Assembly (NCBI RefSeq): GCF_044324875.1
Contig: NZ_CP172185.1
Direction: 5' to 3' (one strand)
Length of the DNA stretch: 64,000 nucleotides
Origin: Escherichia coli
GTDB taxonomy: Bacteria > Pseudomonadota > Gammaproteobacteria > Enterobacterales > Enterobacteriaceae
Below the pieces are notes generated by a model. The model was not told where the DNA came from and searched no databases. It saw only the letters and a program-made list of their open reading frames with translations. The position numbers and the translations under genes were made by a program. Positions 1-38,925 of this stretch are shown one piece after another (position 1 is the stretch's first letter; the number at the start of each line of letters is the position of its first letter).

Positions 1-707
1 GCCTTTATAGATCAATGACTTTTCAAAATTCGCTCCGAGAAAGGTGATTGATACGTCTTTGTACTTACTGAGATCTTTCCATGCGGTAATATTAAGCTGT
101 TCCTTTTTCGCATCGGTAAAGTACTCATTATTCATGATGAACATATCATTTTCGTTAATTGCTGGTAGCTGGTTCAAAATATTCTTCAGTACTTCCCCTT
201 GTATTTCTGGTTTTCTTTCTGCCGCAATATACATATTTCTGTCATCTAATGACTGTACATTGTGTATTAATGAATTAAGAATTACATTTTTTATATTAGT
301 ATCACCCTCATTAATATTCTGAAAAGAATGAAAATTAGTTACGTCATCAATATAAACATTCCACCCGGACAATAATTCAACAGAAATTTTAAAAAAGGTT
401 TTGTCTGTGATAAGTAATGTCGATGAATTCGAACTATTCAAATAATCGATAACAGTACTAATTACACTTTCATCTCTCGGAACTGAATCTGTAATAATAT
501 ACTTACAATCATTAATTTGTTTTGCTGTCTGTTTAATAAGTTCTTGTGTGTTCTGCACTAAAATATATTTTTCAGTACTATTGTTAATTAAATTACATAT
601 AGCAGTAGTTTTACCTGAACCACAAGGGGCGGAGACATACTTAAATTTATTATAAATAGGTGTAGGATTAATCATTTGTACACGCTCCATATTGATTAAT
701 TTAGAAA
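1..707 (-). CDS. P-loop NTPase, helicase-like or AAA+/STAND-like, C-terminus outside window (partial, at least 235 aa)
   Basis: My own minus-strand translation from ATG at 707: MADLSKLINMERVQMINPTPIYNKFKYVSAPCGSGKTTAICNLIN..., with Walker A GSGKTT near residue 30 and a hydrophobic-DD Walker B-like motif VYIDDV about 85 aa later. Low GC. Not in the ORF track because it has no stop within the window. Confidence 0.6.
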
Positions 708-792
708 GGTCAGCCATTCCAGTGTCTGGCCTTTCGTTGTTTTAGTTATTAGTATTTAGGCATTGAAAAATAATTTTATTTGGCATAGTAAA

Positions 793-2355
793 TCATGATT
801 TATTGATTAAATACTCCACCGATTTTAGGTCATCATTCTGAACTGCCATAAATTTCACATCACCAGTTTTACTATCAATTACCATTGCTTGCTTCTCATT
901 AACACCAATATAATTCACAACTAACATAATAGCATTTCCTAAACGCTTCATTTTTATATTTTTAATAACACGTTTAATCTTCACATTAAAATTAAGTCTT
1001 AAATTAGTATTCTTAGAGTCGAGCAAATCATCAGTGCACGATTCTTTTAAATCGCTAAATTTTTCATAACCAACATTTGATTGTTTCAACCTAGTAATTT
1101 CAGTTCGTATTTCGCTAATACGACGTTGGAGGTTTTTTAGTATACGTCTATCATTAGGGTCAGGTATGTATTCCTTTTCCATGTCTGCGAGTATTTCGCT
1201 ACTATAATTTTCTTTTGTAGCTAGCTCTATTGAAAGATAGTTTATTTTAATTTGTATATCATCATCGTTTGACCTCAACATAGAAAAGTCAAAATTCCTG
1301 ATATGTTCCAATAAAGCATTTTCTATAATCTTGTATTTGAAACCTCTTTCTTTGCATTTATCAATTTTCAATAGACTCCCACCACAACGAAAGTATGTAT
1401 CACCTTTTTTATCGACAGAATTAACTTGGACATATCTGCCACAATTCATACATATGCATAATCCTGCAAATAAATTATTAGCTTTTACATTTACTTTTCC
1501 CAACGGGTTTCTCTGCTTTCGTAAATCATTTACAGTTTCAAATAATGATTGTTCAACAACCACTGGATAGATAATCATACCATCTAAAATTTTACGTCCC
1601 GTAGAATTGAATTTACCAATAAGCCTTTGATCTTTAATTATTTTAACCAAATGATTAATAGTCGGCTCACTTTCATTTATCTGCATTTTTTTCTTTTTTA
1701 GTTCATCACGGATTGCAGCAGGTCCAAATCCATCAGCATACATTTTAAAAATAAGGTTGAACTTCTCAGCCTCACCTTCTTTTATCACATACTTATTATT
1801 TTTAACTTCTATCCATGATGGCACTCGATGTGTTAAAACAGATGTTCCTTCGATAGTATTTTTTATTCTTTCATCCCAGTTTTTAATACTTAAGCGAGCT
1901 TTGCGTTTACTTTCATTATGTGCTCGCTGTAAACCTCCTGAAATAATATTCAGATCACTATATTGGTGATGTATCATTTCTGTTTCTACTTCATGAATAT
2001 CGCATCCAGCATTAATCAAGCTCAAGAATAATCCTGCGGCTCGGTTGGGTGCGGCTCTACTAAAGCGGTCTAGGTTTTCAATGACTAACACTGAATTAGT
2101 GATCTTTTTCTGTAACACATCATCTATAAAGTTTTTCAGTACAGAACCATCTTCGATATTTTTTCCGCTATATGCAGATACACCTTCGGCATACAACCAA
2201 CTAATATCCCCAAACTCATAGCCACGGTTATGTTGAGAATCATCGTATGCAGCAACGTAATCTCGCAGCATTGTTTGCTGTCTCGACATGCCATAGCCAT
2301 CTTTAGCTTGTCCTCTCGAACTGACACGAGCGTAGCAATACACCGCTTTTTTCAT
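793..2355 (-). CDS. Large serine recombinase (integrase/resolvase family), 520 aa
   Basis: N-terminal resolvase-type catalytic region YCYARVSSRGQ with the serine nucleophile context; cysteine-rich zinc-ribbon-like segment CICMNCGRY...FRCGG; C-terminal coiled-coil-like region; low GC; sits at the extreme end of the foreign element. Confidence 0.85.
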   Translation of the reverse strand: MKKAVYCYARVSSRGQAKDGYGMSRQQTMLRDYVAAYDDSQHNRGYEFGDISWLYAEGVSAYSGKNIEDGSVLKNFIDDVLQKKITNSVLVIENLDRFSRAAPNRAAGLFLSLINAGCDIHEVETEMIHHQYSDLNIISGGLQRAHNESKRKARLSIKNWDERIKNTIEGTSVLTHRVPSWIEVKNNKYVIKEGEAEKFNLIFKMYADGFGPAAIRDELKKKKMQINESEPTINHLVKIIKDQRLIGKFNSTGRKILDGMIIYPVVVEQSLFETVNDLRKQRNPLGKVNVKANNLFAGLCICMNCGRYVQVNSVDKKGDTYFRCGGSLLKIDKCKERGFKYKIIENALLEHIRNFDFSMLRSNDDDIQIKINYLSIELATKENYSSEILADMEKEYIPDPNDRRILKNLQRRISEIRTEITRLKQSNVGYEKFSDLKESCTDDLLDSKNTNLRLNFNVKIKRVIKNIKMKRLGNAIMLVVNYIGVNEKQAMVIDSKTGDVKFMAVQNDDLKSVEYLINKS

Positions 2356-2396
2356 TTTATTTTCCCTAAAATCATAACAGTAAAAAGCAGTATATC

Positions 2397-2801
2397 ATGG
2401 TGGTTATTGGCATCATTGCCATTTTAAGCGCCATTGGTATTCCCGCTTATCAAAACTACCTGCGCAAAGCCGCACTCACCGACATGCTACAAACCTTTGT
2501 GCCTTACCGTACCGCCGTAGAGTTGTGCGCGCTGGAACATGGTGGATTAGATACCTGCGACGGTGGCAGTAATGGCATCCCCTCGCCTACCACTACCCGC
2601 TATGTTTCAGCCATGAGTGTGGCAAAGGGCGTGGTGTCGCTGACCGGGCAAGAAAGTCTCAATGGGCTAAGCGTCGTCATGACGCCGGGTTGGGATAACG
2701 CAAACGGCGTCACCGGTTGGACGCGCAACTGCAATATTCAAAGTGACAGCGCATTGCAGCAAGCCTGCGAAGATGTCTTCCGCTTTGATGACGCCAACTA
2801 A
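2397..2801 (+). pseudogene. ppdD: Type IV prepilin PpdD, N-terminally truncated by the upstream insertion
   Basis: ORF begins MVVIGIIAILSAIGIPAYQNYLRKAA..., i.e. inside the conserved pilin N-terminal helix; the leader peptide and the G/F cleavage site with FTLIE are missing; sequence immediately upstream is low-GC foreign DNA. Confidence 0.75.
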
Positions 2802-2810
2802 GGAGCGGCA

Positions 2811-4196
2811 ATGAATATTCCACAGCTCACCGCCCTGTGTCTGCGTTATCAGGGAGTCTTGCTGGATGCCAGCGAAGAGGTGGTTCATGTTGCGGTGGTC
2901 GATGCCCCTTCGCATGAGCTACTGGACGCATTGCATTTCGCTACCACCAAACGTATTGAGATCACCTGCTGGACGCGCCAACAAATGGAAGGTCACGCCA
3001 GTCGCACACAACAGACATTGCCCGTAGCTATTCATGAGAAGCATCAGCCCAAAGCAGAGTTGCTGACTCGAACGTTACAATCTGCGCTGGAACAACGCGC
3101 GTCTGATATTCATATCGAACCAGCGGACAATGGCTACCGCATACGCTTGCGTATCGACGGCGTATTGCATCCTTTACCGGATGTTTCACCGGATGCCGGA
3201 ATCGCATTAACCGCCAGATTAAAAGTGCTGGGGAACCTGGATATTGCGGAACATCGCCTGCCGCAGGACGGGCAATTCACTGTCGAACTGGCAGGAAACG
3301 CCGTCTCATTTCGTATTGCGACCTTACCATGTCGGGGTGGTGAAAAGGTGGTATTAAGGTTGTTACAGCAGGTGAGTCAGGCACTGGATGTCAACACGCT
3401 TGGAATGCAGCCGTTACAACTGGCGGACTTTGCTCATGCCTTGCAACAACCACAGGGACTGGTGCTGGTAACAGGCCCTACAGGCAGCGGCAAAACGGTC
3501 ACGCTTTATAGTGCCCTGCAAACGCTGAATACCGCTGACATTAATATTTGTAGCGTAGAAGATCCGGTTGAGATCCCCATAGCCGGACTAAACCAGACGC
3601 AAATCCATCCGCGTGCCGGACTCACCTTTCAGGGCGTTTTGCGTGCGTTATTGCGCCAGGATCCTGACGTCATCATGATCGGAGAGATCCGCGATGGCGA
3701 AACGGCAGAAATTGCCATTAAAGCCGCGCAAACCGGTCACCTGGTGTTGTCTACCCTACACACTAATTCCACCTGCGAAACGCTGGTACGTTTACAGCAA
3801 ATGGGAGTCGCCCGCTGGATGCTATCATCGGCGCTTACGCTGGTAATAGCCCAGCGTCTGGTACGCAAACTTTGCCCGCATTGTCGCCGGCAGCAAGGGG
3901 AGCCCATCCATATTCCAGACAATGTATGGCCGTCGCCGCTGCCCCACTGGCAGGCACCCGGTTGTGTACATTGCTACCACGGTTTTTATGGTCGCACGGC
4001 CTTATTTGAAGTTCTGCCCATAACACCGGTCATACGTCAGCTTATTTCCGCTAATACCGACGTTGAATCGCTGGAAATGCACGCCCGACAGGCGGGTATG
4101 CGTACGCTTTTTGAAAACGGCTGCCTGGCCGTGGAGCAAGGCTTAACCACCTTTGAAGAGTTAATCCGCGTATTGGGGATGCCGCATGGCGAGTAA
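2811..4196 (+). CDS. hofB: Type IV pilus assembly ATPase (PilB/GspE family)
   Basis: 461 aa with Walker A GPTGSGKT and a CxxC...CxxC zinc motif; position downstream of ppdD. Confidence 0.95.
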
Positions 4197-5388
4197 GCAA
4201 CTCTGGCGCTGGCATGGCATAACCGGCGACGGTAATGCGCAAGATGGGATGCTATGGGCAGAGAGTCGTGCTTTACTGCTTATGGCACTACAGCAACAGA
4301 TGGTTACCCCACTTAGCCTGAAGCGAATCGCCATCAATTCTGCGCAGTGGCGAGGAGATAAAAGCGCGGAAGTCATTCATCAACTGGCGACGCTACTCAA
4401 AGCCGGGTTAACGCTTTCTGAAGGGCTGGCACTGCTGGCGGAACAGCATCCCAGTAAGCAATGGCAAGCGTTGCTGCAATCGCTGGCGCACGATCTCGAA
4501 CAGGGCATTGCTTTTTCCAATGCCTTATTACCCTGGTCAGAGGTATTTCCGCCGCTCTATCAGGCAATGATCCGCACGGGGGAATTGACTGGTAAGTTAG
4601 ATGAATGTTGCTTTGAACTTGCTCGACAGCAAAAAGCCCAGCGTCAGTTAGCCGATAAAGTGAAATCAGCGTTGCGTTATCCCATCATCATTTTAGCGAT
4701 GGCAATCATGGTGGTTGTGGCAATGCTGCATTTTGTGCTGCCGGAGTTTGCTGCTATTTATAAGACCTTCAACACCCCACTACCGGTACTAACGCAGGGG
4801 ATCATGACGCTGGCAGACTTTAGTGGCGAATGGGGCTGGCTGCTGGTGTTGTTCGGCTTTCTGCTGGCGATAGCCAATAAGTTGCTGATGCGCCGCCCGA
4901 CCTGGCTTATCGCGCGGCAGAAATTGCTGTTACGCATCCCGATTATGGGTTCACTGATGCGGGGACAAAAACTCACGCAGATCTTTACGATTCTGGCGCT
5001 GACTCAAAGTGCAGGCATTACTTTTTTACAGGGCGTAGAGAGCGTCAGAGCAACAATGCGCTGCCCGTACTGGGTGCAACTTCTGACACAAATCCAGCAC
5101 GATATCAGTAACGGTCATCCCATCTGGCTGGCGCTAAAAAATACCGGTGAGTTTAGCCCGCTCTGTTTGCAATTAGTGAGAACAGGAGAGGCATCCGGCT
5201 CGCTGGATCTCATGTTAGACAACCTCGCCCATCATCATCGGGATAACACACTGGCGCTGGCGGATAACCTCGCAGCCTTACTGGAACCGGCGTTGCTGAT
5301 CATAACGGGAGGAATTATCGGTACGCTGGTGGTGGCAATGTATCTGCCCATTTTCCATTTAGGCGATGCAATGAGTGGAATGGGATAA
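4186..5388 (+). CDS. hofC: Type IV pilus inner-membrane platform protein (PilC/GspF family)
   Basis: 400 aa, overlaps hofB stop; hydrophobic membrane segments; conserved synteny. Confidence 0.95.
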   Translation: MASKQLWRWHGITGDGNAQDGMLWAESRALLLMALQQQMVTPLSLKRIAINSAQWRGDKSAEVIHQLATLLKAGLTLSEGLALLAEQHPSKQWQALLQSLAHDLEQGIAFSNALLPWSEVFPPLYQAMIRTGELTGKLDECCFELARQQKAQRQLADKVKSALRYPIIILAMAIMVVVAMLHFVLPEFAAIYKTFNTPLPVLTQGIMTLADFSGEWGWLLVLFGFLLAIANKLLMRRPTWLIARQKLLLRIPIMGSLMRGQKLTQIFTILALTQSAGITFLQGVESVRATMRCPYWVQLLTQIQHDISNGHPIWLALKNTGEFSPLCLQLVRTGEASGSLDLMLDNLAHHHRDNTLALADNLAALLEPALLIITGGIIGTLVVAMYLPIFHLGDAMSGMG

Positions 5389-19080: not shown

Positions 19081-20148
19081 TTACGCCCGGGCAGCCCGGC
19101 TCACTTCATTTGCCACTCGCTCGGTGGCATCCGGAATGGATGCAGCGCGGGCGCGTTCTGCCATGGTTAATAAGGTTTCTCGCGACCACCCGGCCAGGGT
19201 GTTGGCGACAGCATCCACGCTAAGCTGTGGCTGCTCGATAATTTTGGCTGCGCCCGCTTTTTCCAGCGGTAGAGCATTCCAGTATTGCTGGCGGTCTTTA
19301 TGTTGAAACGGCACAAACAACGCCGGTAGTCCTGCCGCAGCGATTTCACTCACCGTTAACGCACCGGAGCGGCAAACGACGACATCCGCCCACGCATACG
19401 CCGCCGCCATATCATCAATAAATTCCGTCACTTTATGCTGCGGTTGCCCCGCTTCGGCATATGCCTGTTCAACGGATTGTTGCGAACCTTTACCGCTCTG
19501 ATGCCAGATAGTGACTGAATCACCCAGTTTCGCAGCAACCTGCGGCATTGTCTGGTTAAGAATGCGTGCGCCCTGGGAACCACCCACTACCAACACACGA
19601 ACCGGACCTTCACGTCCAGCCAAACGTTGCTGCGGCAACGGCAGCGCCAGCACATCGGTACGCACCGGGTTACCCACCACTTCCGCATTAGGGAAAGCGC
19701 CTGGAAACGCCTGCATCACTTTGGTAGCAATCTTCGCCAGCCATTTATTGGTTAAGCCCGCAATACCGTTTTGTTCATGAAGCACAACCGGAATGCCTAA
19801 CGACCACGCGGCCAGACCACCTGGACCTGATACGTAGCCGCCCATACCGAGCACCACGTCAGGTTTGTACGCTTTCATAATCGCCCGCGCCTGACGCCAG
19901 GCGTTGAAGATACGCAGCGGGGCAGCTATCAGTGCTTTTATACCTTTTCCACGCAGACCAGAGATACGAATGAAATCAATTTCGATGCCATGTTTTGGCA
20001 CTAAGTCCGCTTCCATACGGTCGGCAGTCCCCAGCCAGCGAACTTGCCAACCCTGAGCCATTAGATGGTGCGCAACCGCCAGCCCCGGGAATACATGTCC
20101 ACCGGTTCCGCCTGCCATCACCATTAATCGCTTTCCTTGACCACTCAT
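19081..20148 (-). CDS. murG: Lipid II synthase (UDP-GlcNAc transferase) MurG
   Basis: 355 aa with [12 protein letters not shown]-terminal motif. Confidence 0.97.
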
Positions 20149-21389
20149 CGTGAACCTCGTACAAACGCCTGCGCTTTCTCCAGACGCGTTTCATAATCAA
20201 TACGCAACAGCATCATGATGGCTGTCGACATAATCAGTAAGCTCGAACCACCGTAACTGATCAGCGGCAATGTCAGACCTTTGGTCGGTAACATCCCCGC
20301 CGCCGCGCCTACGTTAACCAGCGCCTGGAAGCTAAACCAGATGCCAATGGAACAGGCGAGAAAACCGGAAAAACGATGGTCAATTTCTAATGCTTTACGG
20401 CCAATCGACATCGCACGAAAAGCGACGAAGAATACCATTAAAAGTGCTAGTACCACACCGACATAACCTAATTCTTCGCCGATAATGGCGAAAATAAAGT
20501 CAGTGTGCGCTTCCGGCAGATACTCCAGTTTTTGTACCGAGTTACCTAAACCTTGCCCCCAAAGTTCGCCGCGACCAAACGCCATCAGCGATTGCGTTAA
20601 CTGATAGCCGCTGCCAAAGGGATCTTCCCACGGGTTCCAGAATGCGGTAACACGGCGGATACGGTACGGTTCGGCGAGGATCAGCAACACAACCGCTGAA
20701 ATGCCCATACCGATAATGGCAATGAACTGCCACAATTTCGCTCCCGCCAGGAATAACATCGCCAGCGTAGTCACAAACAACACCACCACCGTACCAAGGT
20801 CTGGCTGTGCCAGCAGTAATACTGCTAACACCAGAATCACGCCCATCGGTTTCAGGAAGCCGCGCAGGTTATTACGTACTTCGTCGCCTTTACGCACCAG
20901 ATAGTTGGCGATATAGCAAAACAACGACAGTTTTGTCAGCTCCGCAGGCTGGATACGCAGCAAGCCGAGATCGATCCAACGCGATGCCCCTTTAACAGAG
21001 CTACCCACTACCAGAACGATCATCAACAGGATGATTGATCCGAGTAGCATCGTAGCGCTGTAACGTTGCCAGAACTCCATCGGCAGACGCAGCGTAATGA
21101 TCGCCAGAATGAATGCCAGGATCAGATAGACGCCATCACGCTTCGCGAAGAAGAACGGATCGTTGGTTAAGCGTTGCCCTATGGGCATTGACGCCGAGGT
21201 CACCATGATAAAGCCAATCGCCGCGAGGCCGAAGGTCAGCCACAGTAAGGTGCGATCGTACATGATCAGGCTGTCGGTATCTTTTTCCCGCGAGCCCATC
21301 ACCCAGCCCTTTAGCGCCGTGGAGATCCAGACCAGAATACTGAATCCTGGCAGGCGCGGCATTTTCAGGCGAGGGAGAGATAAACGCAT
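20145..21389 (-). CDS. ftsW: Peptidoglycan glycosyltransferase / lipid II flippase FtsW (SEDS family)
   Basis: About 414 aa polytopic membrane protein; the track ORF has one extra N-terminal Met. Confidence 0.95.
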
Positions 21390-32437: not shown

Positions 32438-34162
32438 TCAGGTTCTCTCCGTTTTGCTTAACCACATTTCATCCATTCCGCCCCCGCGAATCTGCATCGG
32501 GTAGACGTGCTCACTGCCATCGACGGTAACATCAACAAACACCAGGCGATTATTGCGCACCTGTTCCAGCGCCTCGCTAAGTTTGCTTTCCAGTTCTTGC
32601 GGATGAGAAATCTGGATCCCGACGTGACCATAGGCTTCCGCCAGACGAACGAAATCGGGTAGCGATTGCATATAAGATTGTGAATGACGGCCGGAATAGA
32701 TCATGTCCTGCCACTGTTTCACCATCCCCAGATAGCGGTTATTGAGATTCACCACCAGTACGGGCAACTCGTATTGCAACGCGGTAGACAGTTCCTGGAT
32801 GTTCATCTGAATACTGCCGTCGCCAGTGACGCAAACCACGGTTTCTTCTGGCAACGCCATTTTGACGCCCAGTGCCGCAGGCAAACCAAACCCCATCGTG
32901 CCGAGGCCGCCAGAGTTGATCCAGCGACGCGGTTTGTCGAATGGATAATAAAGCGCAGCAAACATCTGGTGCTGCCCGACATCGGACGTCACGTAAGCGT
33001 CTCCCTTCGTCAACCGCCAAAGAGTCTCGATCACCGCCTGCGGTTTAATCTTTTCACTGTGAGTGTCATATTTCAGGCACTGACGAGCCCGCCACTGTTC
33101 AATCTGCTGCCACCAGTCGCGGATCTCATCCAGCGGTTGATGGACGGATTCTTGCGACAGGAGTTCAAGCATTTGTTCGAGGACCTGGCGAGCATCCCCC
33201 ACAATCGGGATATCAGCAGTCACGGTTTTAGAAATGGAAGTAGGATCAATATCGATATGCAGAACCGTGGCATTTGGGCAGTACTTCGCCAGATTGTTCG
33301 TCGTTCGGTCATCAAAACGTACCCCGACGGCAAAAATCACATCCGCGTTATGCATCGTCATATTAGCTTCGTAGGTGCCGTGCATTCCCAGCATGCCCAG
33401 TGCCTGACGATGCGTTGCCGGAAACGCCCCCAGCCCCATTAATGAGGAAACAACGGGCAGATTCAACGCCTCCACCGTTTCTTTTAGCTGCTGATGACAG
33501 CCCGCCGTGATTGCCCCACCGCCTACATAGACAACCGGTTTTTTTGCCGCCACCAGCGTTTGCAGAGCACGCTTAATTTGCCCTTTATGTCCGGTAGTAG
33601 TGGGATTGTAAGATCGCATACTGACCGACTCCGGCCAGACATAGGGTAATTTGTTCGCCGGATTAAGAATATCTTTGGGTAAATCAACGACCACGGGCCC
33701 AGGACGACCACTTGCCGCCAGCCAGAAAGCCTTTTTCAGCACCTGCGGAATGTCTTCCGTTTGCTTAACCAGAAAACTGTGTTTAACCACCGGGCGAGAA
33801 ATCCCCACCATGTCGCACTCCTGAAAGGCATCGTAGCCTATCAACGAGGTCGCTACCTGCCCGGAAAGGACAACTAATGGAATGGAATCCATATAAGCGG
33901 TGGCAATGCCAGTAATCGCATTGGTCGCCCCTGGACCCGACGTTACCAGCACGACGCCGACTTCCCCGGTCGCGCGCGCCAGACCATCGGCCATATGCAC
34001 CGCCGCCTGCTCATGACGAACTAAAACATGATCGATACCACCCACGGTATGCAATGCATCGTAAATATCAAGGACCGCGCCTCCGGGATAACCGAATACT
34101 TGTTTAACGCCCTGATCGATAAGCGATCGGACGACCATCTCGGCTCCAGACAACATCTCCAT
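32438..34162 (-). CDS. ilvI: Acetolactate synthase III large subunit
   Basis: 574 aa TPP enzyme starting [14 protein letters not shown]. Confidence 0.95.
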
Positions 34163-34480
34163 GGCCTGCCTCACTGTTTGACGGAAAAAAATGTGTAAAA
34201 CACATTAACCGTCCGATCTTGCTTAAGCAATTGGCAGCCAGAGACATAAACACGGGGTAATAAGAATAAACAGGAGGAAAGGTGAAAAGAAACGATAAAA
34301 TCCTCCATTACAGAGGATTAAATTGATAATAAATCGGCTGAATCCCACAACTTACAGCAATTTCTCTATTTTTTTAATTAATCCTAAAATAGAGAGCACA
34401 CACATTCAGAATAAAATTCTACATTCAATAAAAAATGCAGAATAAACCAGACATTGATGTCTGACCTATTCTGCATTCAG

Positions 34481-35425
34481 TTAGCGTTTGCAAATTGAGA
34501 CTAATTGCTCTTCCATCCACTGATGGCCTTTATCGCGCCCGGCAGCTTCATGCCAGGAGAGATAACAGGTTCTGCTGTTTTGTTTTAACGGCAGCGGTAA
34601 TATCTGTAATTCTAAGGATTCAGCGAACTCTTCCGCCAGCCAACGCGGCGCAATAGCGACCAGATGCGTTTGCGACACCACGCTAAGTACGCTCATCATT
34701 GCCATGCCCTGATACGCGATACTGGCTTGCTTATCTACCGTGTCATACCACGGTTGACTAAATGACGCGAAACGATCGAGCGAAACCGCCGCATGTTGTT
34801 CGTTATAAACATCATGTTTCAGTAACGGGCCTTTAATTGTTGGATGATTTTTGCTGGCTACCAGCACCATTTCATCTTTAAATAATGGCACACTGGTAAA
34901 TTCAGGACGATGGAAGTCTTCATAACTAATCACAAACTCCGTTTCCTGATAACGCAGCTGATGTTCAGTGTTCTGATTTAATGAAGACTTGAACATAACA
35001 TGTATATTTGGCGCAATCTGCTCAATGTGATTATAAATCTGCGAGGTCAGAATGCTGTCTAACGGGCTGCAGACACAAAGATGAAATACACGTTCACTAC
35101 TGGCAGGCTCAAAGCCTGAACCTGGTAATTCATTTTGTACTAATTGCAATGCCTGACGAACTGAACCAAAAAGTTGAAATGCGCGAGCAGTCGGTTGAAT
35201 ACCACGGCCATAACGAACAAAAAGCTCGTCATTAAACATCACCTTCAGGCGTGCAACAGCGTTACTGACCGCAGGTTGCGACATTCCCAGAACATGAGCG
35301 GCACGGGTGATGTTTTGCTCCTGCATCACGGCATCGAAAACGGTTAATAAGTTGAGATCGACCATGCGTAGCTGTGGCTTGCTTAACTCCGCCGTCTCTG
35401 GATGATCTGTTTGTACCTCTGGCAT
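34481..35425 (-). CDS. leuO: LysR-family transcriptional regulator LeuO
   Basis: 314 aa starting [16 protein letters not shown]; flanked by very AT-rich intergenic DNA. Confidence 0.95.
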
Positions 35426-36083
35426 ACTTAACTCCACTGTCACACTTAACTCCCTTTCCCTTATTGGAATGCAGAGAAATAATCCTCGAGAATATGATTT
35501 ATCATGCATATAAAATAAGAAAAAGGAAAATGAGTAAAATTAGGAAAACATAAAGATACGGGTTCTTATAAAAACAGAATCCATTGCCGTGGAAAGCGTC
35601 ATTTACCACAGCATAATAATCCATAATGTTTTTGTTGCGAAAACAATCTAATCATAACTACCACGAATACTCAATCATCCACAAAATGGATTAAATGTGC
35701 TTTTTTAATAATTAATTTATATGTTTAATGCATTAATTCTTAACATTAATTGATCAATAATATTCACCAAATGAATATCAAAAAATTCGCAAAACATATA
35801 ATTCAATACAAATCATCAGGATAGGTTTTGTAACGCGTGCATTTTATCCCCCTTTCCCTCGTCGATTAGATGCAAAAATTTATTCTGAAATATGTCAACC
35901 GATGAAAAGCAGCGGTGGTTAAGCAGAAATTAATATCGCTTGTTTTAACCACCGCAGCACAATTAGCTAATTTGACTGATGCAGAACTCACGCTGGCTGG
36001 ACGTTTTTGTTGCATCAGGGTTGACATCCGTTTTGGTATCCAGTAACTCTAAAAGCATATCGCATTCATCTGGAGCTGATTTG

Positions 36084-36170
36084 ATGACTCACATCGTTCG
36101 CTTTATCGGTCTACTACTACTAAACGCATCTTCTTTGCGCGGTAGACTGGTGAGCGGCATTCAGAATTAA
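36084..36170 (+). CDS. leuL: leu operon leader peptide
   Basis: 28-aa [31 protein letters not shown] with four consecutive CTA Leu codons, followed by an attenuator hairpin. Confidence 0.9.
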
Positions 36171-36194
36171 GTCAGCACTCAGTCAAACAAAAAA

Positions 36195-36219
36195 CCCGCG
36201 CCATTGCGCGGGTTTTTTT
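36195..36219 (+). terminator. leu attenuator (Rho-independent terminator)
   Basis: cccgcgccattgcgcggg hairpin followed by a T7 run. Confidence 0.85.
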
Positions 36220-36262
36220 ATGCCCGAAGCGAGGCGCTCAAAAAGAGACAAGGACCCAAACC

Positions 36263-38925
<2,663 letters not shown>

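What the first reader, a model, noticed from the sequence alone, without database searches (positions are those of the whole stretch)
1..2396. Low-GC foreign element integrated into the 5' end of ppdD; only its recombinase end is visible
Composition changes abruptly at about 2396: everything to the left is strongly AT-rich, while the core genes to the right are typical E. coli. The ppdD frame to the right begins inside the mature pilin helix, so the element has landed within the first dozen codons of ppdD. The two visible genes, a large serine recombinase and a P-loop NTPase, both read away from the junction into the element, whose cargo lies beyond the window start. This is the strongest candidate in the window for an uncharacterised system, for example a defence or phage-derived module carried by a serine-integrase element.
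Basis: partly seen in the sequence, partly recalled or inferred. Interest (0 to 1): 0.85.

Follow-up and report, generated by a model that had tools for sequence, protein, structure and literature searches.

The report
Serine-integrase island splitting pilin gene ppdD
Window 1-2396 is the right-hand quarter of a 9.6 kb mobile island that a large serine recombinase has inserted into codons 13-15 of the E. coli pilin gene ppdD; beyond the window it carries an unnamed two-gene module (a DNA-binding protein plus a nuclease) that is probably an anti-phage defence system.

Summary

**Junction.** GC jumps from about 30% to about 54% exactly at 2396/2397. Of 5,426 complete E. coli genomes, 5,424 match the query. 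Only 6 carry the low-GC DNA, and every listed genome without it matches only from base 2397.

**Element.** In those six genomes it is a 9,589-9,591 bp element inside ppdD, bounded by an 8 bp core (ATGGTGGT) at both ends. Removing it in silico restores a full-length PpdD.

**What the window holds.**
- The integrase, at 793-2355 (minus strand). It has the Resolvase, Recombinase and Zn-ribbon domains.
- The N-terminus of a helicase-like NTPase. RefSeq calls it "type III restriction R", which is a misnomer.

**Backbone.** The NTPase belongs to a conserved backbone: NTPase, a roughly 0.9 kb conserved non-coding stretch, two small envelope proteins and a small resolvase. Sister elements across Enterobacterales share this backbone but use other integrases and other insertion sites. 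They carry Lamassu-like, Avs-like STAND, TIR+NACHT or HNH genes.

**Cargo here.** In this element the cargo is two genes:
- A, 425 aa, with 4-5 tandem winged helices.
- B, 365 aa, an Mrr/Cap4-like PD-(D/E)xK nuclease.

The pair is found from Proteobacteria to Firmicutes and Cyanobacteria, often in defence-island or mobile-element contexts. It has no Pfam, PADLOC, NCBIfam or PHROG family.

**Status.** A defence role is inferred, not shown. No excised circle was found.

The parts
1..717 (-). 5' part (about 239 of 491 codons) of backbone gene F, an SF2 helicase-like P-loop NTPase. The rest lies beyond the window start. RefSeq starts it at 675.
   Evidence: Window 1-2396 is 100% identical to MSI001 L001 20001-22396, where the full ORF is 19242-20717. 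Pfam matches only the Walker-A region (ResIII 1.4e-4, DEAD 2.8e-3). It matches phrog_2467, function unknown, at 6e-38. One of 20 distant relatives is fused to a Prim-Pol domain.
793..2355 (-). Large serine recombinase (integrase), 520 aa, complete.
   Evidence: Pfam finds Resolvase (4.4e-6), Recombinase (1.2e-6) and Zn_ribbon_recom (1.7e-7). It matches phrog_95 integrase at 9.8e-43. The N-terminus reads YARVSSRGQ, which includes the catalytic serine motif.
2356..2396 (.). Element-derived arm of attR, containing the outer half-site ACAGTAA at 2377-2383.
   Evidence: The reconstructed attP has its best dyad symmetry centred on the middle of the core. ACAGTAA and TTACTGT lie 14-20 bp (inner to outer edge) on either side of that centre.
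2397..2404 (.). 8-bp core ATGGTGGT (ppdD codons 13-15), identical in attL, attR and attB. The crossover must lie within it.
   Evidence: Alignment of attL (L001 12800-12807), attR (L001 22397-22404, equal to window 2397-2404) and the empty site L002.
2397..2801 (+). 3' 134 codons of ppdD (Met13 to stop). The first 12 codons are missing: the prepilin leader and the start of the mature N-terminus, including the conserved Glu.
   Evidence: The 5' fragment (MDKQRGFTLIELMVVI plus 11 element-encoded residues) lies 9.6 kb away in the complete genomes.

Best explanation
Window 1-2396 is the right end of a ~9.6 kb integrative mobile island. The element-specific DNA is 9,589 bp.

**Shown.**
- A complete large serine recombinase sits 41 bp from the junction.
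- The island is bounded by the same 8-bp core, ATGGTGGT, at both ends.
- It splits ppdD between codons 12 and 16.
- Precise deletion regenerates the wild-type gene.
- The window's copy is identical to that of a strain whose adjacent core DNA differs by ~2%. The first mismatch is only 174 bp from the junction. This argues for recent site-specific acquisition rather than inheritance or transfer together with flanking DNA.

**Inferred mechanism of integration.** The recombinase pairs a ~48-bp dyad-symmetric attP with the ppdD attB and exchanges strands at a central dinucleotide, probably the GT of ATG-GT-GGT. This leaves PpdD without its leader and N-terminus, and separates hofB and hofC from the ppdD promoter.

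**The rest of the island** (seen in six complete genomes).
- A conserved backbone: the helicase-like NTPase F, a ~0.9-kb conserved non-coding block with GATC-rich iteron-like repeats, the membrane protein E, the secreted protein D, and a small resolvase with repeats upstream.
- One cargo operon, A-B.

The non-coding block is probably an origin for F, so the excised element may replicate. That is inference.

**Cargo.** A is a 425-aa protein of 4-5 tandem winged-helix domains. B is a 365-aa Mrr/Cap4-like PD-(D/E)xK endonuclease (invariant D46xD48 and D66-C-K68) with a family-specific helical domain. I infer, at about 55% confidence, that A-B is an anti-phage or anti-MGE nuclease system: A recognises foreign or modified DNA and licenses cleavage by B.
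For: **Junction and rarity:**. **Full element and annotation:**. **att sites, in-silico restoration of PpdD and attP symmetry:**. **Recombinase domains:**

**Recent mobility.** Window 1-2396 has 0 mismatches to MSI001, against 118 mismatches in 5,970 bp of right flank. All 17 differences within 1-3400 lie at or beyond 2570.

**Backbone versus cargo.** L001 15715-20780 is shared at 82-98% identity with elements at rcnR/thiM, yggR and ffs. Those elements carry other integrases and cargo: TIR+NACHT, Cap4-nuclease+AAA_23 (Lamassu-like), a STAND ATPase, and HNH. The same gene order occurs in Dickeya, Morganella and Providencia.

**The A-B pair.**
- The two genes are adjacent in all 7 of 7 contexts examined. 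These include a Pantoea IME next to an AAA_23 ATPase, a Pseudomonas island next to a methyltransferase and a helicase, a Burkholderia plasmid next to DUF262/DUF3696, a Nostoc locus near a UvrD helicase and a reverse transcriptase, and a Priestia plasmid.
- A has 621 homologues and B has 171, all annotated 'hypothetical'.
- Catalytic residues are invariant in 22 diverse B sequences.
- Foldseek finds full-length matches (TM up to 0.96) that are auto-annotated as Cap4-like, Mrr or restriction endonucleases.
- A models as tandem winged helices.
- A is absent from 50,697 phage records and present on 10 plasmids.
Against: - No defence HMM matches A or B. PADLOC v2 gives only noise, and B's weak hit is to CmdC, a SecB-like chaperone.
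- No experiment exists.
- A is unusually conserved for a defence sensor: 52-70% identity across phyla.
- The A model is only moderately confident (pLDDT 70).
- No excised circle or attP junction was found in IMG/VR or JGI metagenomes. The one ~10 kb metagenome contig that carries a sister element ends in core DNA, so it is not a circle.
- No recombination directionality factor was identified.
- The origin role of the non-coding block and the replicative role of F rest on repeats, conservation and a single Prim-Pol fusion.
Confidence: 0.8

Rival explanations
1. The island is a phage satellite (P4- or PICI-like) or a degraded prophage. On this reading F and the non-coding block would be its replication module, and it would spread by hijacking a helper phage capsid.
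For: It is small (9.6 kb). It has an integrase, a helicase-like protein and an iteron-like non-coding block next to a variable defence slot, which resembles P4 (own knowledge). F matches a PHROG family, phrog_2467. One distant F relative is fused to Prim-Pol. Hochhauser et al. suggest that integrase-only defence islands may be uncharacterised satellites (PMC10121019).
Against: No capsid, packaging, AlpA, Psu/Sid/Delta or primase genes were found in Pfam, PHROG or NCBIfam scans. F and the attP junction are absent from 2.9 M IMG/VR contigs. In 50,697 phage records F has only a 22%-identity hit in one jumbo phage.
Confidence: 0.12
2. A-B is not a defence system. It would instead serve the element itself (a partition, regulation or excision accessory, or an addiction module), or compete with other mobile elements.
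For: A is a pure multi-winged-helix DNA binder, a fold typical of regulators and initiators. A is highly conserved. There is no PADLOC hit. A-B lies next to attL.
Against: A-B occurs without this backbone in unrelated contexts. It is bracketed by IS elements in Thalassotalea and Burkholderia and sits on plasmids in Firmicutes. It occupies the slot that holds recognised defence genes in sister elements. Sister elements function without it. B has an intact nuclease active site.
Confidence: 0.2
3. The biologically selected effect is the gene split itself. The element would act as a reversible switch (regulated gene integrity) that turns off the PpdD pilus and DNA uptake, and the cargo would be secondary. 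This reading is not exclusive of the best explanation.
For: In-silico excision restores ppdD exactly. A sister element with a 27%-identical recombinase splits yggR, a PilT-like pilus ATPase, at about codon 15. ppdD is a Sxy/CRP-S competence-regulon pilin (PMC3330819, PMC1635313). Gene-splitting integrative elements are a recognised class (PMC7192596).
Against: ppdD was not expressed in any of 72 ECOR strains under laboratory conditions (PMC3330819), so the site may simply be a low-cost landing pad. The Dickeya relative is not inserted in a pilus gene. No evidence of excision was found.
Confidence: 0.15
4. The low-GC DNA is native nadC-ppdD intergenic sequence or an assembly artefact.
For: None was found.
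Against: 5,418 of the 5,424 matching complete genomes lack it and have nadC followed about 200 bp later by an intact ppdD. The same junctions occur in six independent complete assemblies.
Confidence: 0.01

Closest known systems
Gene-splitting elements driven by large serine recombinases (B. subtilis skin/SpoIVCA in sigK, SPbeta in spsM, Listeria A118/phi10403S in comK, Anabaena fdxN element/XisF); 'regulated gene integrity' (PMC7192596)
   Same: Resolvase + Recombinase + Zn-ribbon integrase. The target lies inside a coding gene. The identical core is short. Precise excision would restore the gene. There is a weak NCBIfam similarity to XisF and CcrB.
   Different: The host is Gram-negative. The element has no phage genes and is only 9.6 kb. 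The target, ppdD, is not reported in the literature searched. Regulated excision is not shown and no RDF was identified. NCBIfam scores are far below the cut-offs (24.5 against 900 for CcrB; 17.8 against 375 for XisF), so it is not an equivalog of either.
'Integrase-only' defence islands at E. coli hotspots (Hochhauser et al. 2023, PMC10121019), in particular hotspot #6, yggS-yggR
   Same: Small islands that carry an integrase or recombinase and defence genes but no known transfer genes. Sister elements with the same backbone occupy hotspot #6.
   Different: The ppdD site was not found in that paper's text or held supplementary files (some truncated), so it does not appear among its 41 hotspots. 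The cargo is not recognised by defence HMMs. In the text read, the conserved backbone (F, the non-coding block, E, D, the resolvase) and the swapping of serine and tyrosine integrases are not described.
Mrr-type (type IV) restriction endonucleases and Cap4-like nuclease effectors
   Same: B has the PD-(D/E)xK fold and motif, and its best structural matches are AF1548, Can2 and NucS. Relatives in AFDB are auto-annotated as Mrr, Cap4-like or restriction endonucleases. Mrr combines a winged helix with this nuclease fold (own knowledge).
   Different: Here the winged helices are on a separate 425-aa protein with 4-5 copies. B has a ~240-aa helical domain of its own. There is no SAVED/CARF domain or CD-NTase nearby. 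There is no Pfam Mrr_cat or Cap4_nuclease hit.
P4-like satellites and PICIs with defence hotspots
   Same: A small integrative element with an integrase, a replication-like helicase, an iteron-like non-coding region and a variable slot filled with defence genes.
   Different: No capsid-remodelling, packaging or regulatory hallmark genes. It is absent from viral contig collections. The integrase is a serine recombinase in this member.

Membership tests
Large serine recombinase (serine integrase) element | N-terminal resolvase catalytic domain with the serine nucleophile, followed by a Recombinase domain and a zinc-ribbon domain | tested here: met
   Pfam PF00239, PF07508 and PF13408 all match at E<=4.4e-6. 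The YARVSS and DRFSR motifs are visible in the translation.
Large serine recombinase (serine integrase) element | Short att sites with a small identical core, a dyad-symmetric attP of about 50 bp, and no long direct repeats | tested here: met
   An 8-bp identical core, ATGGTGGT. The best dyad centre of the reconstructed attP falls in the middle of the core.
Large serine recombinase (serine integrase) element | Catalyses attP x attB integration, and excision requires an RDF | not testable with these tools
   No RDF candidate was identified. No attP junction was found in public contigs.
Regulated-gene-integrity / gene-splitting integrative element | The target gene is inactivated by integration and exactly restored by excision | tested here: met
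   In-silico excision gives a PpdD identical at 147 of 147 positions (146 aa plus stop) to the empty-site allele. The integrated state leaves a 27-aa fragment and a leaderless 134-aa ORF.
Regulated-gene-integrity / gene-splitting integrative element | Excision is developmentally or environmentally regulated | not testable with these tools
   No data.
Anti-phage defence system (genes A-B) | Matches a model of a known or candidate defence system | tested here: not met
   PADLOC-DB v2: A has no hit. B hits only PD-T4-9_C at E=0.0097, which is a SecB-like chaperone.
Anti-phage defence system (genes A-B) | Lies in defence islands or in the cargo slots of mobile elements, next to known defence genes, with a patchy cross-phylum distribution | tested here: met
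Anti-phage defence system (genes A-B) | Confers phage resistance | not testable with these tools
   Needs an experiment.
Mrr / Cap4-like PD-(D/E)xK nuclease (gene B) | alpha-beta-beta-beta-alpha-beta core with conserved D...(D/E)xK residues | tested here: met
Mrr / Cap4-like PD-(D/E)xK nuclease (gene B) | Sequence-profile membership of Pfam Mrr_cat or Cap4_nuclease | tested here: not met
   No Pfam hit at E<=1 other than noise.
Type III restriction endonuclease R subunit (the RefSeq name of gene F) | Res subunit of about 900-1000 aa with a full SF2 helicase, a C-terminal endonuclease and an adjacent Mod methyltransferase (own knowledge of the family) | tested here: not met
   F is 477-491 aa. 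Only residues 26-74 match ResIII. No methyltransferase is present in the element.
Phage satellite (P4-like / PICI) | Hallmark genes (capsid-size redirection, packaging, AlpA, primase) and occurrence in virions | tested here: not met
   No such domains were found. It is absent from IMG/VR.

The most novel reading that the evidence does not exclude
A-B would be a so-far unnamed two-gene immune system that spans several phyla. A multi-winged-helix DNA sensor would license an Mrr/Cap4-like nuclease.

It would ride on a previously undescribed family of modular Enterobacterales elements. Those elements would replicate from a conserved 0.9-kb origin (or express a large structured RNA from it) with a dedicated SF2 helicase, and would exchange serine and tyrosine integrases.

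In E. coli the serine-integrase members would reversibly split type IV pilus and competence genes (ppdD, yggR). That would couple carriage of immunity to shutting off DNA uptake or removing pilus receptors for phages.
Probability: 0.35. Interest if true: 0.75.

Novelty: new member of a known kind. Interest (0 to 1): 0.55.

Why it matters
**A testable defence candidate.** The island gives a concrete, clonable candidate, about 2.4 kb and two genes. It is absent from Pfam, PADLOC, NCBIfam and PHROGs, yet it is found in Proteobacteria, Cyanobacteria, Firmicutes and, distantly, Actinobacteria.

**Anatomy for 'integrase-only' islands.** The transfer mechanism of these E. coli defence islands is an acknowledged open question (PMC10121019). 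This element family gives them a defined structure: a conserved helicase, a conserved non-coding block, a resolvase, two cargo slots and interchangeable integrases.

**A new integrase/att pair.** The ppdD-specific integrase and its short att sites form a natural recombinase and landing-site pair for E. coli.

**Link to pili and competence.** Two related integrases both hit the first ~15 codons of type IV pilus genes. That raises a testable link between carriage of mobile elements and loss of DNA uptake or pilus function.

Tried and rejected
- **Rfam scan of the whole element at E<=1.** It gave only a sub-threshold L20-leader hit in an unrelated place.
- **A conserved 19-mer from the non-coding block as a probe.** In GTDB genomes and IMG/VR it returned only 19-23-nt chance matches in Chloroflexi MAGs and viral contigs.
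- **RNAalifold on 8 copies of the non-coding block.** The covariation term was +5.5, which is not supportive, with only a few compensatory pairs. I therefore do not claim an RNA.
- **Search for the excised circle.** The attP junction 27-mer is absent from IMG/VR and JGI metagenomes. A 10,481-bp metagenome contig carrying a sister element looked like a possible circle, but it has no terminal overlap and ends in yggR/yggS core DNA.
- **F in other collections.** tblastn found nothing in plasmids and only a 22%-identity hit in one jumbo phage. F is not in IMG/VR.
- **PDB sequence searches.** A, B, F and the recombinase gave nothing significant.
- **Weak PADLOC hits rejected as noise.** These were B to PD-T4-9_C, the small recombinase to HerA, F to Cas3d and the integrase to LmuA, all at E about 0.005-0.01. 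PD-T4-9_C is a SecB-like chaperone.
- **The RefSeq name 'type III restriction endonuclease subunit R' for F** is rejected.
- **Literature.** No paper in the library links ppdD with serine recombinases or defence, or cites the protein accessions.
- **Pfam scan of membrane protein E.** Nothing was found.
Full report
**1. The observation**

In 300-nt windows, GC is 0.27-0.39 up to position 2250 and 0.52-0.56 from 2401 onward. Nothing else in the 64 kb window is as AT-rich. The only other dip, at 34-36 kb, is the native ilvI-leuO-leuA region.

Megablast of window 1-3400 against 5,426 complete E. coli genomes matched 5,424 of them. Only six cover bases 1-2396, and every listed genome without the element starts matching at exactly 2397.

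The ORF at 2397-2801 begins at Met13 of PpdD. An unoccupied strain (L002) has the full 441-nt gene, starting MDKQRGFTLIEL.

Two minus-strand genes fill the AT-rich part:
- a complete 520-aa protein at 793-2355;
- the first ~239 codons of a P-loop protein that runs off the window start.

**2. The whole element**

The six carriers are MSI001, FDN-9, FDN-24, KSC64, 94-3024 and CFSAN002236. In these genomes the low-GC DNA is a 9,589-9,591 bp insert between a 5' ppdD stub and the 3' ppdD ORF. The window's 2,396 bp are the right-hand quarter of it.

- attL reads ...GAACTG ATGGTGGT cattaacagtaaattactgtac.
- attR reads ...acagtaaaaagcagtatatc ATGGTGGT TATTGGC...
- attB reads ...GAACTG ATGGTGGT TATTGGC....

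The only shared sequence is the 8-bp core, which is ppdD codons 13-15.

Joining the two halves in silico gives a PpdD identical at all 147 positions to the empty-site allele. The reconstructed attP has its best dyad centre in the middle of the core, with ACAGTAA and TTACTGT arms 14-20 bp out on each side. That is the layout expected for a serine-integrase attP. The central GT is my inferred crossover dinucleotide.

**3. The integrase**

The 520-aa protein has Resolvase, Recombinase and Zn_ribbon_recom domains. It matches PHROG 95, 'integrase', at 1e-42. It scores far below the cut-offs for CcrB and XisF. It is therefore a large serine recombinase, but not a member of those named subfamilies.

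**4. Evidence of recent mobility**

Window 1-2396 is 100% identical to the MSI001 element, whereas the adjacent 6 kb of core DNA differs at 118 positions, about 2%. Within 1-3400, all 17 differences lie at or beyond 2570, only 174 bp past the junction. Identity that stops at the att site argues for site-specific acquisition in diverged backgrounds, not co-transfer with flanking DNA.

The exact recombinase sequence is on 283 public contigs. Its 90% cluster includes Citrobacter.

**5. Backbone versus cargo**

Megablast of the full element showed that L001 15715-20780 recurs at 82-98% identity at other chromosomal sites, with other integrases and other cargo. This segment holds the small resolvase C, the secreted 119-aa protein D, the 346-aa membrane protein E, a ~1 kb ORF-free stretch and the NTPase F.

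| Site | Integrase | Cargo |
|---|---|---|
| rcnR/thiM | tyrosine integrase | TIR + NACHT |
| yggR | 598-aa serine recombinase | Cap4-nuclease + AAA_23 (Lamassu-like) |
| yggR | 598-aa serine recombinase | STAND ATPase |
| ffs | tyrosine integrase | HNH and DUF genes |

The same order (integrase, F, a ~0.9 kb gap, small proteins, cargo, resolvase) occurs in Dickeya, Morganella and Providencia. F homologues are present throughout Enterobacterales.

The P-loop gene visible in the window is therefore a core gene of an element family, not cargo. There are two cargo slots: one outside the resolvase and one between the resolvase and D.

Hochhauser et al. list yggS-yggR as defence hotspot #6. They describe such integrase-only islands as having unclear mobilisation. 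ppdD was not found in that paper's text or held supplementary files (PMC10121019).

**6. What F is**

- Pfam sees only the Walker-A region (ResIII, DEAD).
- The element has no Mod methyltransferase, and F is half the size of a Res subunit, so the RefSeq name is a misnomer.
- F matches phrog_2467, of unknown function.
- It is absent from plasmids, and in phage records has only one remote hit.
- Among 20 distant relatives, 9 match the DEAD or ResIII helicase families at E<=0.1 (4-5 at E<=0.001), and one is fused to a Prim-Pol domain.

Next to F lies the ORF-free block (L001 18259-19241). Across five E. coli elements it is more conserved than the F coding DNA: 75-82% invariant columns against 38-81%, mostly 40-65%. 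It is richer in GC. It contains TTGATCGAT/CGATCAAT repeats that are conserved as far as Providencia.

My best reading is a helicase plus origin, meaning a replicative stage after excision. This is inference. A structured RNA is not excluded: the fold z-score is -3.7 on the minus strand, but covariation is not supportive.

**7. The cargo, A-B**

A (425 aa) and B (365 aa) abut as an operon, with 5 nt between the annotated CDSs and a possible overlapping upstream start for B. Neither has a hit in any of these searches:
- Pfam, PADLOC, NCBIfam or PHROG families;
- PDB sequences.

Distribution:
- Both have many homologues, all annotated 'hypothetical'. They occur in Enterobacterales, Vibrio, Pseudomonas, Shewanella, Burkholderiales, Paracoccus and cyanobacteria.
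- tblastn extends A to plasmids of Priestia and, remotely, of actinobacteria. There is no hit in 50,697 phage records.
- The two genes were adjacent in all seven contexts examined. Five of the seven are mobile or defence-like neighbourhoods.

Structure of B:
- B keeps E28, D46, D48 and D66-C67-K68 invariant in 22 diverse sequences.
- Its model is confident (pLDDT 86.7) and has an alpha-beta-beta-beta-alpha-beta N-domain.
- Full-length Foldseek matches (TM up to 0.96) include proteins auto-annotated as Cap4-like, Mrr or restriction endonucleases, from many phyla.

I therefore propose a split Mrr-like nuclease system, in which A recognises DNA and B cuts it. The fold and the genomic context are shown. 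The function is inferred, at about 55% confidence.

**8. Consequences for the host**

The integrated state leaves a 27-aa stub and a leaderless PpdD. By inference, it also uncouples hofB and hofC from the ppdD promoter.

ppdD is a Sxy/CRP-S competence-regulon pilin and was silent in all 72 ECOR strains tested (PMC3330819, PMC1635313). The site may therefore be a cheap landing pad, or its loss may block DNA uptake.

A sister element whose recombinase is 27% identical splits yggR, a PilT-like ATPase, at about codon 15. The Dickeya relative is not in a pilus gene. I therefore treat the pilus theme as a lead only.

**9. Comparison and verdict**

The finding is a new member of a known kind. It is a serine-integrase genomic island of the 'integrase-only defence island' type, at a previously unlisted site, and it carries an unnamed candidate system.

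It is not a satellite by any hallmark tested.

No excised form was detected. No RDF was found.

Noticed in passing
L004 7860-8000 and 18150-18300; L005, L007 and L008 equivalents (not in the window): Sister elements with a 598-aa serine recombinase are annotated as lying 'between yggR and yggS'. They in fact split yggR, a PilT-like type IV pilus ATPase, at about codon 15. The first 15 codons (MNMEEIVALSVKHNV) sit next to yggS and the rest of the gene lies at the other end of the element. So two related integrases both hit the 5' end of pilus genes.
   Followed up: partly
L001 18259-19241 (equivalents: L003-L006, L020 11483-12472, L021 11486-12327, L022 11420-12324): A ~0.85-1.0 kb ORF-free block between F and E is more conserved than the neighbouring coding DNA and is richer in GC. 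It has GATC-rich TTGATCGAT repeats and repeated AGAGCGAA motifs. There is no Rfam hit. The fold z-score is -3.7 on the minus strand, but alignment covariation is not supportive. It could be an origin or a large RNA; this is unresolved.
   Followed up: partly
window 1-717 (L001 19242-20717): RefSeq names F 'type III restriction endonuclease subunit R' or 'DEAD/DEAH box helicase'. Only the Walker-A segment matches those families, there is no Mod partner, and the protein is about half the size of a Res subunit. The name looks like an annotation artefact that has been propagated over hundreds of Enterobacterales records.
   Followed up: yes
L001 15715-20780 compared with L003 9001-14038: The 5-kb backbone is 97.6% identical between the ppdD element (serine integrase at the right end) and the rcnR/thiM element (tyrosine integrase at the left end). 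Integrase modules have therefore been swapped very recently on an otherwise unchanged backbone.
   Followed up: partly
L001 16289-16340: Two 24-nt direct repeats (AGTATCATTTAAATT...) lie just upstream of the small resolvase gene C. They may form a res or operator site. The cargo/backbone homology breakpoints lie at C's stop codon and about 125 nt upstream of C.
   Followed up: no
L023 4234-16493 (Pantoea agglomerans): An 89%-identical A-B pair rides on a different vehicle here. It is an integrative mobilisable element with a P4-type tyrosine integrase and a relaxase, and A-B sits next to an AAA_23/AAA_21 ATPase gene pair that looks like another defence system.
   Followed up: no
window 2811-5388: hofB (annotated gspE) and hofC follow the truncated ppdD and are now 9.6 kb from the ppdD promoter region. 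Whether they are still expressed, for example by read-through from the element, was not examined.
   Followed up: no
window 34000-36300: A second GC dip (0.39-0.43) corresponds to the native ilvI-leuO-leuA region, so it is ordinary core DNA.
   Followed up: yes
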